A stretch of DNA of 64,000 nucleotides. Source: Candidatus Parvarchaeota archaeon. Lineage in GTDB: Archaea > Nanobdellota > Nanobdellia > WJKC01. Position 1 is the first letter of the stretch; every line of letters starts with the position of its first letter. Where the stretch lies: positions 126,566-190,565 of the forward strand of contig JAUWZX010000001.1 of the NCBI GenBank assembly GCA_030615175.1, written 5' to 3'. Positions 6,001-12,000 of this stretch are shown here, one piece after another. The position numbers were made by a program.

Positions 6001-9000
6001 ATTATTTCAGTCTTGTTTTTGGTCTTGTTCAAGTTTTTTTCACTTTTTTAATAGTGCGTGTTTTGGTTTTGCTTTTTAATATGCGCAAGGAGGATTCTTC
6101 GAAAGTGCTGTTCTTGTTTTTATGTCCTGTTTTTTACTTAATGAGTTTGTCGCGTTTTGATTTAATGCCTGTCGGGTTATTATTGCTTAGTTATTATTAC
6201 GCGAGAAAGGGGAATCCTTATGCTTCAGGAGTTATTCTCGCTCTCGCGTCCACTCTTAAGTTATTCCCTTTAGTCTTTGTGCCATCATTCTTCCTTATTA
6301 AGAAACTTGATTATAAGAAGTTCCTGCTTGCCTTTTTACTTACTGCTTTCGCGATTTACATTCCAGTTTTCATTCTGCAGCCAGGGACTATTTTTTCCCC
6401 TCTTAGTTTTGTTGGTTCTGATTATCGTCCTGAGTCATTGTTCGGTTTTTTAGGTTTCATGAATTTAGCTGTTCCTTCCTGGGCTGCTAGTTTAATTAAG
6501 TATTCAATTATTGCTTTAGTTCTTATTCTTGCTTTTAAGAAAGTCAGGAGTGCTGTCGGGTTTGGGTTTTCACTTATTATTTTATTAATGGTTTCAAGTC
6601 CTTTATTTAGTCCTCAGTGGAATATCTGGATTGTTCCTTTATTATTACTTATTGGTGTTTGTCCGTTAATCATAATTGTTTTTGAAGTTATTACTTTCAT
6701 TGAGTTCCCTTTCATCTGGAGTAAGGTTGCGGGGTTGACTGGCTTCACTCATGAGCGCTTCTTTGAAGGAGGAGTGTACAGTATTTTATTCGTCCTGCTT
6801 AATATTGCGCGTTATGCTTTTCTTTATTATTTCTTTTACCGGGTTGTTAAGAAAGAAGGCGCTTCACTTAAGTTTCCTAAATTTTTATTAAGAAAGAAAA
6901 GTTAAGAAGTAATTAATGGATAATTTTACACTGATAGATTTAGATGATTTATTGGAAAATTATGATTTAGGACATAAGGCAAGGTTTATGAATGTTTGTT
7001 ATGATTCTGATGGGCTTAAAGGAGGAACTGCAATTATTAGATTATACATGAATTTTTATGGATATCCAGGCGTTCGTTATGCTAAAAATATTGTTAGCAA
7101 ATTTAATAAAAAAAAGAATAATAATTTTGAATTAAAATTTAATTCTAGTTTTCCTATCAATCTTGAAAGATGGAGTGAACCAGCTAATCCTAAACCCTGC
7201 TTTTATATTGAGAAAGTGCCACTGGATAAGGATGCTTGTGAGGAAGCAATATTAATAATGCTTAAGGCGCAGAGTAAATTGTTTAAGAAAATTTAATCAT
7301 AATCCTTGTCTTTTGAAATTCTTGATGGCGTTGCAGTTGTCTGCCCTTGATACTTGCCTGAGTAAGGATTCTTGCAGGGATTTGATAATTTATGAAGTGT
7401 TAGTTTACAAATCTTCATTCTTGGATAAATCTTTACAGGCATTTTGCCGATATTGGCAACTTCAAGTGTTAACTTGCCTTTGAATCCTGCGTCAACCATT
7501 GCTGCTGTCTGAATGATTATTCCTAATCTGCCGAGGCTGCTTCTGCCGTCAAGATTTGCTGCTAAGTCGTTAGGCATTTCAATCCATTCATGAGTGGTTG
7601 CAAGAATGAATTCATTAGGGTGCAGTATAAAGAATTCACCGTCATTAATCACTTTTAATTCAGTGTAGTCTTCACTGTCATTTAACGGGTCTATGTGTGT
7701 TTTAGCAATGTGCTTGAAAATCCTGAATTCATTGCCAAGCCTTAAGTCAATGCTGTTAGGTCCTATTAATTTCCTGTCAAAAGGTTTTAAGACTAAACTC
7801 CTTTCATCAATTCGTTTTTCAATGTCATCGTCACATAAAATCATTCAAAACACCTTTAATGTCTTCATGAACTTCCTTAATGCTTTTATCACCGTTTATT
7901 ATTATAAACCTCTTGCTTTTAAGCAGTAAATATTCATCCCTGACTTTTTTTAGCACTTCTTTCATTTCGTATTTATCTTTGCTTTTATTCCTGTTATTAA
8001 CCCTGTTAATTGCTGTTTTAACAGGCGCGTCCAGGTAAATCGTTAAGTTAGGTTTTGGAAAGCATTTATTCAGGTTAATAACCCATTCTTTGTTTAAGCC
8101 CATTGCTGTCTGGTAAGCAATGCTTGAATGAATGTACCTGTCGCATATAACTGTTAGTCCTTTCATTAAACTTGGCATTATCACTTTCTCAATGTGCAAT
8201 GCCCTGTCAGCAGCGAATAATATTGCATCAACCCATTGCTCTGTGTCCGGATTCTTCAAGTGCTCCTGTAGCACTTGGCTTGTCTCTAAGTCCTTTGTCG
8301 GTTCCTCAGTTACCTTAACCCTGATTCCTTTAGTATTTAACCATTTCTTCAGTAACTCTACCTGTGTTGTCTTGCCTGAACCGTCAATTCCTTCAAAAGT
8401 TATGAACATACTTATTCTATCATCCCTTCTTCTCTTAATAATTCTTCTACAGTGTCAAGGATATTATCATATATGTGCAGGCTTACTGCATAGTGCGTGT
8501 AACTTCCTACCTGAACTCCTAATTCATCAGCCATTAATTTCTGCAGTTTAGTGATTGCGTAAACATTGCTTGGGAAGCCGCCGTAAAGGTCTTGTGATTT
8601 GAACATGACATGGAAGTCTAGTCTGCCTTTATTAATTCTTGGCTGAACAGTTACTAAGCAGGGAGCGTGAGGCATGCGCTTTAAACTCAAGTCCTTGTAA
8701 GGCATCCAAGTGCACATCACGACTCTTCTGAGGGTTGGGTCTTTTTTTAATAACTTAACTGCTTCCCTGACTTGGTCAAACTTTATTAAGCCCTTATCCC
8801 CTGTTTTTAATAATTCTTCGTTGCTTGCAATGTTAGGAACTTCTGAGCGCGCAACGCTTTCAGGGTAATGCCTTAAGCGCGAGTAATAAGTGTAAACGAA
8901 TTCATTTTCTTTTTCAATACCTTTTCCTTCAATGAATTCCTTAGCATACTTATTTCTTGCCTCGTACTTAGGGGCTTTGGGGTTCATGACAGGCTCTGCC

Positions 9001-12000
9001 AGCGCATCCTTAACGTGAATGATTATTGGCAGGTCGAACGTGCGCGCATTGTACTTGCCTACTTCATATTTCTCTCCGTAAAGGTATGCCTGCGTTAATG
9101 CCTTAATCCAAGCATCACTCAAATTCTTTGCTTCAATAAAAGTTGTTTTTAAGTAATCTTTTTCCTTAACATCTTCAGTGTCTTCTTCATAATCTTTTGA
9201 ATCCTTAAGGCATAATTCTGCTTTTTTTAATTCACTGCCTAAGTAAAGTGCGTGATGCAGGTCAGATATCAGTCCTAATTTAATTATTTTCTTGTTAATC
9301 TCTAATGCTGTTTTCCCAATAATTACTGTATGTTCTTTTCCTTTCATGAAATGCTTTGCCACTATGTAGTTATTCTTTGTTTCAATTTTAAAGTAGCCAA
9401 GTTCATCTTCTTTCCATTCCACTTCTGTTCCTTGAGCATTAATCGCGCTTTTAAACGCGTTGCCTGATTTTTTTTCAATGTCAAGAACATAGTCTTCAAT
9501 GCTTTTTGTTTCAGGAAGGTCTTTTATTATTTTTATTATTTCTTCAGGGTTTTCTGAGTTAATCACCTTTATGTTCTGTATTTGCTTTCTGAACCTTTTT
9601 ATTAATTCATCATTAACTTTTAATTTAGGGTCATCGCCTGTTGCATTAGTAATTCTTTTATTTTCATCCACGCCCTTATTTACTAAATTCTTTAAAGCAT
9701 TGCCCACATTATGCCCTTTGCTTTCCTTGCCGCAAATAATTATATTCCTAACCCTGCCGTTGCTTATTAAGTTCTTAATCATCCTGTCAATGCCTACATT
9801 TTCAGTAACGCATGAGCCTATAACCGCTATTCTTTTGCAATCATTGAATTCAGCGTTATCAGGCAGTGAGAATGAAGCTCTAGTGACTACTGCAGTGTCC
9901 CCTTTAAGGTTTAATATTTTGTAAGAGCCTTTTATTGGAGGCCAGGTCATACTTGCGCTTCCTTCTCAGTTGAGGCGACTCTTCCGCCCTGCCACTGCCC
10001 CCTGTACATATTAGTTTCCCCTTTCACTTCAAGGAATTGAATGTGAGCCACTCTTGCCCCTAATTCAAACTTGAACGGCTTGTTTCCTGAATTCTTTAAT
10101 CCGAATACAAGCCCTCCTTTGTAGCCCGGGCTTGTTGCTGTTGCTATTAATATTACTCCGCACCTGTGAAGCGTGCTCCTTGGGAAAGTATACATTACTA
10201 AGTTTTTAGGGACATTAACTGATTCCATTGTCTTAATAGTTACGTACTCTTCTGGCATTAATGTGTAATCCTTGTCCTTGCCATGCTCTGCTACTAATTT
10301 AACATTGCTCGTGTCCCTTTCATTTACTCCCAGGAATCCTTCGCTTTCCAGTTTGTAAACTTTGCCTACCCTAATGTCAAAGCCTGCTCCTTCAGGATTT
10401 GCTTTTTCGCGTTCGCATAAGTTTTTAACAAAACCATTAATCTTGTCAACGCCCAGTATCATTGAATTTCTTGAGTTCTCTTCCACTTTAAAATTTTTCT
10501 CTTCCTCTTTTAAAATTTTATATATTCTGAGGTTCGTTAAAATAATCATGAGATTATTTTTAGGAGCGCCTCTGCCAGTGGATATTAGAAAATTACTGGT
10601 TAGTCTTTATGAGTTATTTAATTCAGTTCCCTGCAAGTTAAAATTTGTTCCTTTTGAGAACCTTCACATTACCCTGCGCTTCCTTGGCGAGCAGTCCAGT
10701 GCCAAGGAAATTATTAATTCGCTTTCAGGAATTGATTTTAATTCATTTAATGCTTCTATTGAGAATTTCTCAGTCTTTCCAGGTCCTAAGTTCATCAGGA
10801 TTATTCATTCCCCGGTTACTCTTGGCAGCGGGGGATTTATTGAGTTGTATAAAAAAATTACTTCTTCATTAAATCTTAAGCCAGAGCGCTTCACTCCTCA
10901 CGCCACCATTGCGCGCGTTAAGGGTGAGTGCAGTCCAATTAATATTTTGTCAATAACTCATAACATCACTTTTAAGGAGGAATTCACTGCATCATCATTT
11001 AATCTTTACAAGAGCACTCTTACTCCTAAAGGACCAGTTTATGAAGTGCTTAAGGAGTTTAGACTTAAAACATAACATTTAAAATAAGATGCTTGCATAA
11101 CTTTTTTCTTAAATGAAGCTAGTTATTTGCGAGAAACAGATGGCAGCTAAAAGGATTGCAGGCATTTTATCTAATAATTCATGTTCAGAGAAGAAGATTA
11201 ATAAAATTATTTATTATGACTGCGGTGACTTAAACGTTATAGGATTGTCAGGTCATGTTTTTAATATTGATTTCCCGGAAGAGTATTCTTCATGGAGTAA
11301 GGTGAAATTAAAAAAATTAGTTAAAGCAAATATTGATTACATTCCTGATAAGAAACCAATTATTAATGCTGTTAAGAAGCTGGCAAAAAAAGCTAAATTA
11401 GTTATTATCTCAACTGATTTTGATACTGAGGGGGAGAGTATTGGGCTTGAGGCTTATAATATTGTCAAGTCAGTTAAGGATGTGCCTGTTAAGCGCGCCC
11501 AGTTCTCAACCATTACAGAGGAGGATATTAATCATGCTTTCTCTAATCTTTTTGAACTTGACTTTAATCTTGCTCACTCTGCTGATGCGCGCAGGGAGAT
11601 TGACTTGATTTGGGGTGCTGTTCTCACGAGATTCATTAGTCTTGTAAGCCACAGGCTTGGCAATTATTTCCTAAGTGTGGGCAGGGTTCAGAGCCCTACC
11701 CTGAAATTAATTGTTGACAGAGAGAAGGAGCGTCTTGCTTTTAAGCCAGAGCCTTACTGGGAGATTCCTTTGAAGTTGAGCAAGGATGGGAGTAAATTTA
11801 TGGCTCATTATGTTGAGCAGAAAATCTTTGACAGGAAGCTGGTTCTTAAGTTGCTGGCTTTAAAGCCTAAGGAGGCAGTTGTTAAAAGTATTTCTAAGAG
11901 GAGGAGGACTATTAAGCCTCCTGTGCCTTTTAATACAACTGAATTCATCAGGGCTGCATCAAGGATTGGTTTATCTTCAATGAATTCTATGAGGATTGCT

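What a model noticed while it worked through the whole genome (the two positions that open the first line are those of the whole stretch)
8412..9950. Thymidylate synthase fused to a cobalamin-binding MtrA-like domain in a genome without folate enzymes
Gene g00485 encodes one 512-aa protein made of an MtrA-like corrinoid-binding domain (res. 1-150), a PterinBD-DUF4346 domain (181-257) and a ThyA-type thymidylate synthase (about 270-510), inside a dCTP deaminase - dTMP kinase - dUTPase operon, while the genome shows no SHMT, DHFR, ThyX or pterin-binding methyltransferase. My boldest reading is that this is a corrinoid-dependent thymidylate synthase: the MtrA/pterin module hands a one-carbon unit via cobalamin to dUMP activated by the ThyA cysteine, so that no dihydrofolate has to be recycled. 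That would be a third mechanistic class of thymidylate synthesis and would explain how folate-less DPANN archaea make dTMP.
Evidence so far: pfam.tsv: MtrA 1.9e-34 (2-147), PterinBD-DUF4346 1.1e-19 (181-257), Thymidylat_synt 3.5e-22 (355-507). N-terminal part matches solved MtrA/cobalamin complex 5laa: phmmer E 1e-22, profile E 3.5e-57; AF2 model of res. 1-260 (pLDDT 87) aligns to 5laa_B with Z 22.8, rmsd 1.8 A over 149 res., next hit Z 7.8. The cobalt-ligand His and its Glu partner described for MtrA (PMC4915002, passages read, call 84) are aligned to identical residues in g00485. Full-length model pLDDT 83.7; C-terminal part hits ThyA structures at Foldseek E 1e-14; catalytic Cys (Pro-Cys motif) and the Asp/Asn of the dUMP pocket are kept. 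Six-frame family searches of the own genome found 0 matches for SHMT, DHFR_1, Thy1/ThyX, [...]
(Added by a program. Inside this text positions count along the whole contig: contig position 126,566 is position 1 of the stretch shown here. "Call 12" and the like, gene names such as g00115 and contig names such as C1 are that model's own, and its searches are not shown. The text may have been shortened before it was handed on; [...] marks where a part breaks off. The agent that wrote the report below was given it as the finding of a first reader that could run no searches.)

Follow-up and report, generated by a model that had tools for sequence, protein, structure and literature searches.

The report
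B12-linked thymidylate synthase of tiny archaea
This small-genome archaeon seems to make the DNA base thymine with an unstudied enzyme that joins a thymidylate synthase to a vitamin-B12-binding module and needs no dihydrofolate reductase, which may be a third way of making thymidylate, although the chemistry is untested.

Summary
Observation confirmed: a 512-aa MtrA–DUF4346–ThyA protein in a dUTPase/dTMP kinase/dCTP deaminase operon, the genome's only thymidylate source found. It is not a one-off: 40 of 251 class genomes carry the three domains; 0 of 40 have ThyX and 1 of 39 has DHFR (10 of 14 classical-ThyA genomes do). The scan has noted the family 8 times on other DNA.

New support for B12: the gene is the fused form of a split cassette (MtrA/DUF4346 + same ThyA subtype) with invariant cobalt-ligand His/Glu. 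One bacterial lineage has CbrT-like and transcobalamin-like uptake genes upstream, and ferredoxin–DUF4346 fusions sit beside B12-radical-SAM genes.

Against: 147 of 148 proteins of the commoner order (MtrA–ThyA–DUF4346) lack that His. SHMT absence is uninformative (13 of 107 ThyX genomes have it). ThyA's pterin-contact Asp is kept, and no methyl-loading enzyme or B12 importer was found here.

Verdict: DHFR-independent dTMP synthase (~0.9) binding a corrinoid (~0.75). Direct methyl-corrinoid transfer ~0.35; redox recycling is the close rival. Not found in ten literature searches.

The parts
8412..9950 (-). 512-aa fusion protein MtrA-like / DUF4346 / archaeal-type ThyA
9501..9947 (-). MtrA-like corrinoid-binding domain (res. 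2-150)
   Evidence: Pfam E 2.5e-33; 5laa E 3.8e-22; Z 15.8; coordinates
9711..9713 (-). His80, equivalent of the MtrA cobalt ligand His84
   Evidence: 45 of 45 in alignment A8 (the His motif was part of the scan pattern)
9801..9803 (-). Glu50, equivalent of MtrA Glu54 (partner of the His)
9174..9419 (-). DUF4346 domain (res. 178-259): three strands plus two helices, no solved fold matched
   Evidence: model pLDDT 88.5; best Z 5.8
9252..9254 (-). His233, invariant with Gly238 and Glu240 in DUF4346
   Evidence: 100 of 100 aligned domains
8427..9143 (-). Short archaeal-type thymidylate synthase domain (res. 270-508), Lys-for-Arg subtype
   Evidence: TIGR03283 E 3.6e-39
8658..8660 (-). Cys431, catalytic nucleophile position (Pro-Cys)
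   Evidence: 44 of 44 in A9; 148 of 148 in the common order
9947..10549 (-). dUTPase or dCTP-deaminase-like gene, first of the operon, overlapping the fusion start by 4 nt
   Evidence: below both NCBIfam cut-offs
7831..8409 (-). dTMP kinase
   Evidence: TIGR00041 173 bits over cut-off 83.25
7293..7844 (-). dCTP deaminase
   Evidence: TIGR02274 212.7 bits over cut-off 92.8

Best explanation
The protein is this archaeon's de novo dTMP synthase and works without dihydrofolate reductase because a corrinoid carries the methyl group. Shown by sequence and genome data: an intact ThyA core, a corrinoid site with all side-chain contacts of MtrA but one, operon position between dUMP supply and dTMP kinase, and replacement of ThyX and of ThyA+DHFR. 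Inferred: Cys431 adds to C6 of dUMP; the C5 carbanion takes CH3 from methyl-Co(III) held base-off/His80-on in the MtrA domain; loss of H5 and Cys gives dTMP and Co(I). Co(I) is re-methylated from an outside donor (SAM is the candidate here, or a host methyl-pterin). DUF4346 (invariant His233/Glu240) caps or reductively reactivates the corrinoid. Layered odds: dTMP synthase ~0.9; corrinoid bound in this subtype ~0.75; corrinoid in the catalytic cycle ~0.6; direct methyl transfer ~0.35.
For: Only ThyA-like locus in the genome; no ThyX or thymidine kinase, but NrdD present. 40 of 251 class genomes hold the three domains, 0 of 40 hold ThyX against 107 of 251 overall, 17 expected. DHFR in 1 of 39 fusion genomes (G064, which also has a classical SHMT-ThyA-DHFR cluster) against 10 of 14 classical-ThyA genomes, 4 of those 10 without SHMT. 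The window's ThyA clade is sister (0.945) to the ThyA of a split cassette: ThyA lies in 49 of 52 loci with >=0.9 kb downstream of a His-bearing MtrA/DUF4346 gene. DUF6580 is in 23 and DUF4430 in 15 of those 80 loci, directly upstream of dcd. The DUF6580 profile's only PDB hit is 6fnp_A, E 6.9e-7; 6FNP is the cobalamin transporter ECF-CbrT (PMC5997447). The DUF4430 profile hits intrinsic factor weakly, E 0.038. G051, a His-bearing member in the other domain order, has the same DUF6580+DUF4430 pair elsewhere in its genome, the only DUF6580 over cut-off in 80 genomes. The own genome has 5 B12-binding ORFs and a SAM synthetase; SAM synthetase is in 3 of 3 His-bearing, 4 of 36 other fusion, 2 of 27 ThyX and 0 of 14 classical genomes. 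Ferredoxin-DUF4346 fusions have a B12-radical-SAM-like gene next to them in 3 of 8 loci and within about 5 kb in 3 more. Polar C-methylation by methylcobalamin (TsrM) and Cys-activated C5 methylation of uracil (TrmA) are recalled precedents, from no call.
Against: In the commoner order MtrA-ThyA-DUF4346 the His is present in 1 of 148 and the Glu is not among the common residues; a Trp (138) and a Tyr (136) are conserved instead, and 12 of 12 genomes of family f22 with that form have no other B12-binding domain. The ThyA Asp that contacts the pterin ring in classical enzymes (role recalled) is kept in 44 of 44 and 147 of 148, as expected if a pterin or flavin still binds. No MtrH or pterin-binding methyltransferase was found in the own genome, and MtrH in 0 of 39 fusion genomes. 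No B12 importer was found in the own genome (87% complete). The uptake-gene link in the split cassette is one lineage: 17 of 63 clusters at 90% identity but 1 of 18 at 60%. The SAM synthetase count rests on three genomes, two congeneric, and radical-SAM genes explain it as well. Four of the 8 ferredoxin-DUF4346 loci were chosen for known proximity; of 3 picked blind, 1 had the neighbour. Two close homologues (P0006, P0007) lost the catalytic Cys yet keep His80/Glu50, so the module can persist without ThyA chemistry.
Confidence: 0.35

Rival explanations
1. Redox-recycling module, the functional analogue of DHFR in DHFR-TS. ThyA takes methylene from a pterin as usual; the MtrA/DUF4346 module (corrinoid here, possibly a flavin or other aromatic cofactor in His-less forms) passes electrons from ferredoxin to re-reduce the dihydropterin or to reduce the exocyclic methylene intermediate.
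For: DHFR is what disappears (1 of 39 against 10 of 14). The Asp of the cofactor site is kept. DUF4346 is fused to ferredoxins and ends dihydropteroate-synthase-like proteins (TIGR00284). ThyA-less bacterial MtrA/DUF4346 proteins carry a Cys-rich N-terminal domain. The closest solved fold of the ThyA part is the flavin-using dCMP monooxygenase 9iqc (Z 20.2, rmsd 3.0, 190 aligned), and ThyA-fold enzymes can switch from folate to flavin (PMC13326640 passages). It also covers the His-less majority.
Against: It still needs methylene-pterin, and SHMT is in 1 of 40 and FolD in 0 of 39 fusion genomes. The only characterised MtrA role is methyl carriage (PMC4915002). No stand-alone reductase partner recurs among neighbours.
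Confidence: 0.27
2. Accessory or sensing module: it binds a corrinoid or nucleotide and regulates, stabilises or localises an otherwise ordinary archaeal ThyA that uses host-derived methylene-pterin once, without recycling.
For: The cobalt ligand is dispensable in 147 of 148 of the common order. ThyA-less homologues lie beside MerR and ArsR regulators or are fused to ArsR. Classical ThyA+DHFR and ThyX genomes of the class mostly lack SHMT, so loaded pterin is apparently obtainable.
Against: The module joins ThyA in several parts of the tree and in two domain orders, is also fused to dCTP deaminase (P0029), and His233/Glu240 are invariant. Classical ThyA in this class keeps DHFR in 10 of 14, so single use is not the rule.
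Confidence: 0.17
3. One-carbon loading module: the corrinoid shuttles methyl onto or off a pterin and so supplies the loaded pterin that ThyA (or ThyX) needs, replacing SHMT.
For: The module is kept with a decayed ThyA insert 3 kb from ThyX, dCMP deaminase and dTMP kinase in G136 (L141), and with a decayed or Cys-less ThyA in G080, G118, P0006 and P0007. Stand-alone DUF4346 occurs in ThyX genomes.
Against: Intact fusions and ThyX never co-occur (0 of 40). Most ThyX genomes show no MtrA domain (31 of 251 genomes have any). It does not explain the loss of DHFR, and a methyl-to-methylene oxidation step would be needed.
Confidence: 0.13
4. The product is not dTMP but another C5-modified pyrimidine nucleotide (hydroxy-, hydroxymethyl-), as in phage ThyA-fold enzymes.
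For: Top structural matches are 9iqc and MilA 5jnh (Z 20.2 and 18.2) above ThyA entries (Z about 16). The subtype has K451 for Arg and an extra invariant H486.
Against: Asn462 (dUMP-type; role recalled) is invariant. The gene is flanked by dCTP deaminase, dUTPase and dTMP kinase here and in relatives (dTMP kinase near 22 of 80 loci). The genome would otherwise have no dTMP source found. The model is of middling quality.
Confidence: 0.08

Closest known systems
Archaeal/methanogen-type thymidylate synthase (NCBIfam TIGR03283, ThyA superfamily)
   Same: Best family model for res. 271-497; Pro-Cys, S-x-D, Asn and H-x-Y motifs present; short core without the classical insert; dTMP operon context.
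   Different: Below the cut-off (134 against 174.55 bits); Lys for the phosphate Arg; two extra domains; no DHFR. The cofactor of archaeal ThyA itself is little studied (PMC9012536 and PMC9931769 passages).
MtrA, corrinoid subunit of the Mtr methyltransferase, and its soluble homologues (5laa)
   Same: Fold (Z 15.8) and the His/Glu dyad plus nucleotide-tail contacts are kept.
   Different: No membrane anchor and no MtrH in the genome; joined to DUF4346 and ThyA; below TIGR01111 cut-off (103 against 249 bits).
MtrA-ThyA-DUF4346 fusion of DPANN archaea, Patescibacteria and Chloroflexota (uncharacterised; databases call it thymidylate synthase)
   Same: Same three domains, same dTMP neighbourhood, same exclusion of ThyX and DHFR; 336 loci in the genome collection.
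   Different: Different domain order, a separate clade for both module and ThyA, Arg-type ThyA, and no cobalt His in 147 of 148.
Bifunctional DHFR-TS and ThyX
   Same: Both solve the problem of pterin oxidation during dTMP synthesis; the fusion occupies the same genomic slot.
   Different: No DHFR or Thy1 homology; no flavin site shown.
Flavin-dependent dCMP hydroxylases of phages (9iqc; RB69 gp48)
   Same: ThyA fold, closest structural match; precedent for a cofactor switch in this fold.
   Different: They act on dCMP with O2; this protein keeps the dUMP-type Asn and sits in a genome with the anaerobic reductase NrdD.

Membership tests
ThyA superfamily / archaeal type TIGR03283 | ThyA fold with catalytic Cys and dUMP-binding residues | tested here: met
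   C431, S452, D454, N462, H492, Y494, R408-R409 present; Foldseek E 3.2e-12
ThyA superfamily / archaeal type TIGR03283 | Score over the curated equivalog cut-off | tested here: not met
   134.4 bits against 174.55; the split partner scores 130.1, phage PhiF1 ORF59 187.1
Classical ThyA pathway | DHFR encoded to recycle dihydrofolate | tested here: not met
   0 in own genome, 87% complete; 1 of 39 fusion genomes against 10 of 14 classical
Classical ThyA pathway | Methylene-tetrahydropterin is donor and reductant | not testable with these tools
   needs enzyme assay; the Asp of the cofactor site is kept
MtrA-type corrinoid proteins | His84/Glu54 axial dyad and nucleotide-tail pocket | tested here: met
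   H80, E50, T49, N51, G53, N60, Y10 identical to 5laa
MtrA-type corrinoid proteins | Binds cobalamin | not testable with these tools
   indirect only: uptake-like genes in relatives
Mtr complex subunit A (energy-conserving) | Membrane anchor and MtrH partner | tested here: not met
   MtrH 0 of 39 fusion genomes; the domain continues into DUF4346, and the model shows no anchor helix after it
ThyX | Thy1 domain | tested here: not met
Common-order MtrA-ThyA-DUF4346 fusion | Domain order and His-less, Trp/Tyr MtrA pocket | tested here: not met
   order MtrA-DUF4346-ThyA; H80 kept, A25 and V48 where that family has Trp and Tyr
Pterin-binding role of DUF4346 (Pfam name) | Known pterin-binding fold or ligand | tested here: inconclusive
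   best Z 5.8 to unrelated chains; no paper holds the term
Flavin-dependent dCMP hydroxylase | Asp in place of Asn for dCMP specificity (recalled) and flavin binding | tested here: not met
   N462 in 44 of 44; flavin binding itself not testable

The most novel reading that the evidence does not exclude
A third class of thymidylate synthase: ThyA-activated dUMP is methylated directly by a methyl-corrinoid, with no folate redox cycle. The invariant His of DUF4346 is a second or replacement cobalt ligand, so the His-less majority in DPANN, Patescibacteria and Chloroflexota uses the same chemistry, and the unexplained soluble MtrA homologues of methanogens may serve their poorly characterised ThyA in the same way.
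Probability: 0.3. Interest if true: 0.93.

Novelty: new variant of a known kind. Interest (0 to 1): 0.72.

Why it matters
Two chemistries for making dTMP are known (ThyA with DHFR, and ThyX). This family fills the same slot in about one in six genomes of this archaeal class without either DHFR or ThyX, so something else must deal with the reducing step. The window's subtype is the one in which the corrinoid site is intact and relatives carry B12-uptake-like genes, so it is the best entry for a test. The natural split form (a 257-aa ThyA and a 290-aa module) allows each half to be assayed alone. A positive result would add a B12-dependent step to DNA precursor synthesis, give DUF4346 and DUF6580 functions, and bear on the open question of the cofactor of archaeal ThyA.

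Tried and rejected
Complex prediction of two ThyA domains (A9) with the MtrA/DUF4346 module (A8): no verdict, score 0.00 in two runs, controls not folded; it is not used for or against binding. A module-only pair was not run. Fold search of DUF4346 alone: no match above Z 5.8; ESM Atlas gave no usable hit for it. Single-protein scan of genome contigs found nothing; the 45-row alignment was too diverse to scan with. Search for longer fusions with A5 covered only 946-2700 aa and found none, which is weak evidence. The idea that the ~530-aa gene before stand-alone 215-aa ThyA-like genes is SHMT was wrong: no Pfam match, and those ThyA-like proteins lack the Cys. SHMT absence as evidence for new chemistry was rejected. 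MtrH as methyl loader: 0 of 39. FolD as methylene source: 0 of 39. DUF6580 as BtuM: the PDB hit was CbrT instead. No three-domain form among 19 viral loci or 1675 phage records. Cluster look-ups gave no informative names. Literature: no paper for thymidylate synthase + DUF4346, DUF4346 alone, or thymidylate synthase + cobalamin + archaea + MtrA; some searches returned unrelated papers; the library lacks most subscription journals and older scans, and no supplements were read. Formate-THF ligase, MTHFR and glycine cleavage were not searched (caps reached).

Full report
1. Observation. The ORF at 8412-9950 (minus strand, 512 aa) is real and lies in a tight four-gene run: dUTPase/dCTP-deaminase-like (9947-10549), the fusion, dTMP kinase (7831-8409), dCTP deaminase (7293-7844). 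Pfam gives MtrA 2-147, DUF4346 181-257 and thymidylate synthase 355-507; the archaeal ThyA model TIGR03283 covers 271-497 but stays below its cut-off. The N-terminal domain matches the MtrA-cobalamin structure 5laa by sequence (E 3.8e-22) and by fold (Z 15.8, rmsd 2.5, 137 aligned; next unrelated fold 7.7). Using the contacts listed in PMC4915002 (parts 1-2 of 5 read), the cobalt His, its Glu partner and the side-chain contacts of the nucleotide tail are identical except Val61 (Met here). The ThyA part keeps Pro-Cys431, Asp454, Asn462 and His-x-Tyr, with Lys451 where the family has Arg. The genome (86.86% complete) gave no SHMT, DHFR, ThyX, pterin-binding barrel, FolD, MtrH or thymidine kinase, has one ThyA-like locus and has NrdD.

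2. It belongs to a large family. Of 159 proteins from two homology searches, 82 are MtrA-DUF4346 without ThyA, 46 are MtrA-ThyA-DUF4346 and 8 have the window's order. The common order gave 336 loci in the genome collection; the 80 kept are named Woese-, Aenigm-, Micr- and Pacearchaeota, Patescibacteria, Chloroflexota and a few others. Their neighbours within 3 kb are dTMP kinase (22 of 80), dUTPase (19) and a dCMP deaminase/kinase group (16). This scan has noted the family eight times on other DNA.

3. It is the dTMP synthase and it replaces DHFR, not SHMT. In 251 genomes of the class, I read 40 as carrying the three domains (37 common order, two of them partial; one frameshifted; two of the window's order; left out were the divergent 796-aa form of G044 and three with a decayed ThyA insert). 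None of the 40 has ThyX, against 107 of 251 overall. In a set of 80 genomes (39 fusion; 27 ThyX genomes at least 95% complete, taken in handle order; 14 with a 290-320 aa classical ThyA), DHFR is in 1, 0 and 10; the one fusion case also has a classical SHMT-ThyA-DHFR cluster. SHMT is in 1 of 40 fusion, 13 of 107 ThyX and 6 of 14 classical genomes, and FolD in 0, 1 and 3. So lack of SHMT is general in this class and says nothing special about the fusion, while lack of DHFR is specific. Kin are not independent and many genomes are incomplete.

4. The family is split on the cobalt ligand. The His is present in 10 of 10 of the window's order and 70 of 81 ThyA-less proteins, but in 1 of 148 of the common order, where Trp (138) and Tyr (136) are conserved and the Gly, Ser/Thr and Asn of the nucleotide pocket remain. 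Trees of the module (168 sequences) and of ThyA (105 sequences) put the window's clade apart from the His-less clade; deep supports are modest.

5. The window's gene is the fused form of a split cassette with B12-uptake-like genes. A metagenome scan with His-bearing MtrA/DUF4346 proteins (121 relatives, best 80 kept; the His motif was in the scan pattern) gave 75 loci with such an ORF; ThyA lies in 49 of 52 with at least 0.9 kb downstream. That 257-aa ThyA is the window's subtype (38-44% identity, invariant Cys, Lys, Asp, Asn) and its sister clade (0.945). The typical bacterial order is DUF4430, DUF6580, dCTP deaminase, MtrA/DUF4346, ThyA, dTMP kinase. DUF6580 is in 23 and DUF4430 in 15 of the 80 loci. 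A DUF6580 profile has one PDB hit, 6fnp_A (E 6.9e-7), and 6FNP is the cobalamin transporter ECF-CbrT (PMC5997447, passages; that chain A is CbrT is inferred from its length). A DUF4430 profile hits gastric intrinsic factor weakly (E 0.038), and PMC4350170 (one passage) places DUF4430 in transcobalamin-like proteins. Limits: these loci are 17 of 63 clusters at 90% identity but 1 of 18 at 60%. Two further cases are G051, the one His-bearing member of the common order, with the same pair elsewhere in its genome, and 5 of 80 His-less loci with a convergent DUF6580. The own genome shows no such importer but has five B12-binding ORFs, four of them B12-radical-SAM genes in this window. B12-binding domains occur in 21 of 39, 9 of 27 and 3 of 14 genomes, and in 0 of 12 fusion genomes of family f22.

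6. DUF4346. It folds confidently (pLDDT 88.5) with no solved match above Z 5.8. His233, Gly238 and Glu240 are invariant in 100 of 100 domains. It is fused to ferredoxin in about 195-aa proteins; a B12-radical-SAM-like gene is adjacent in 3 of 8 such loci, within about 5 kb in 3, and not seen in 2 (four loci were chosen for known proximity, one was seen first by chance, and 1 of 3 picked blind had it). It also ends dihydropteroate-synthase-like proteins. Many bacterial ThyA-less MtrA/DUF4346 proteins have a Cys-rich N-terminal domain and the two plasmid contexts read were beside MerR or ArsR genes. This points to a cobalamin-handling or redox role at least as much as to pterin binding.

7. Mechanism. 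I commit to a methyl-corrinoid relay (0.35): Cys431 activates dUMP, C5 takes CH3 from methyl-Co(III), and Co(I) is re-methylated from outside. It explains the corrinoid site, the uptake genes and the loss of DHFR. The donor is unidentified: MtrH is in 0 of 39; an archaeal SAM synthetase is in 3 of 3 His-bearing, 4 of 36 other fusion, 2 of 27 ThyX and 0 of 14 classical genomes, a small and confounded count. The main rival (0.27) is redox recycling of a pterin: the cofactor-site Asp is kept, DUF4346 pairs with ferredoxin, the closest solved fold is the flavin enzyme 9iqc (Z 20.2; cofactor switch described in PMC13326640, passages), and it covers His-less forms. Accessory (0.17), one-carbon loading (0.13; module retained beside ThyX in L141 and in Cys-less P0006 and P0007) and a non-thymine product (0.08) remain. 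TsrM, TrmA and the roles of E. coli ThyA residues are recalled, not from calls.

8. Novelty. Ten literature searches found no description of the fusion; the library lacks most subscription papers and no supplements were read. PMC9012536 and PMC9931769 (passages) state that archaeal ThyA biochemistry is little studied. What is shown is a new variant of ThyA that is independent of DHFR and has an intact corrinoid site; a new class of chemistry is plausible but untested. Interest 0.72.

Noticed in passing
window 41785-60774: Four B12-binding radical-SAM genes (42717-44168, 49261-50847, 57265-58716, 59365-60774) interleaved with glycosyltransferases, two SAM methyltransferases and two large ORFs without Pfam match (50844-53861, 53911-56253): probably a surface-glycan modification cluster.
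   Followed up: partly
L147:5598-7860, L148:5561-7819, L149:6079-8346, L150:4190-6486 and L008, L009, L017, L021-L025, L030: A conserved two-gene unit in this class: a 524-552 aa ORF without Pfam match followed by a 213-223 aa ThyA-like protein lacking the catalytic Cys (Pro-Gly or Pro-Ser); 12 such proteins form one clade. Possibly a nucleotide sensor with a regulator.
   Followed up: partly
L156:6336-6920, L275:3112-3720, L280:3205-3795, L276-L279, L281: Ferredoxin-DUF4346 fusion proteins of about 195 aa, often beside B12-radical-SAM genes; candidate cobalamin reactivation partners.
   Followed up: partly
P0032, P0058, P0073, L161:464-1840, L162:7917-9098, L238: Bacterial MtrA/DUF4346 proteins without ThyA carry a seven-Cys N-terminal domain and lie beside MerR/ArsR regulators or are fused to ArsR: a possible corrinoid-dependent metal(loid) detoxification system.
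   Followed up: partly
L165-L204 upstream of dcd; L272:2041-3046: DUF6580 is homologous to the cobalamin S-component CbrT and pairs with a membrane-anchored DUF4430 protein: a candidate B12 uptake unit of ultra-small bacteria and archaea.
   Followed up: partly
L243:4968-6356 (P0007) and P0006: Close relatives of the window's protein, one in the same gene order, whose ThyA domain lost the catalytic Cys while the corrinoid residues are intact.
   Followed up: partly
L141:1256-7124, L142:6734-10146, L143:6372-7406: His-less MtrA...DUF4346 proteins with a decayed middle domain, kept near dCMP deaminase, dTMP kinase and, in L141, a tandem ThyX.
   Followed up: partly
class genomes: Many ThyX genes of this class are tandem two-domain proteins of 450-630 aa, and 94 of 107 ThyX genomes show no SHMT: their methylene source is unexplained.
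   Followed up: no
L144:5315-7705 (G044): 796-aa divergent MtrA-DUF4346-ThyA form with long inserts, beside a HAD phosphatase and a deaminase.
   Followed up: no
G001, G016, G088, G113, G182, G197, G212, G222, G237, G247: ThyA-like matches in ORFs of 344-402 aa that are neither classical nor the three-domain form; extra domain not examined.
   Followed up: no
L159:5450-6865 (G085): The common-order fusion gene is broken into four pieces in this assembly.
   Followed up: no
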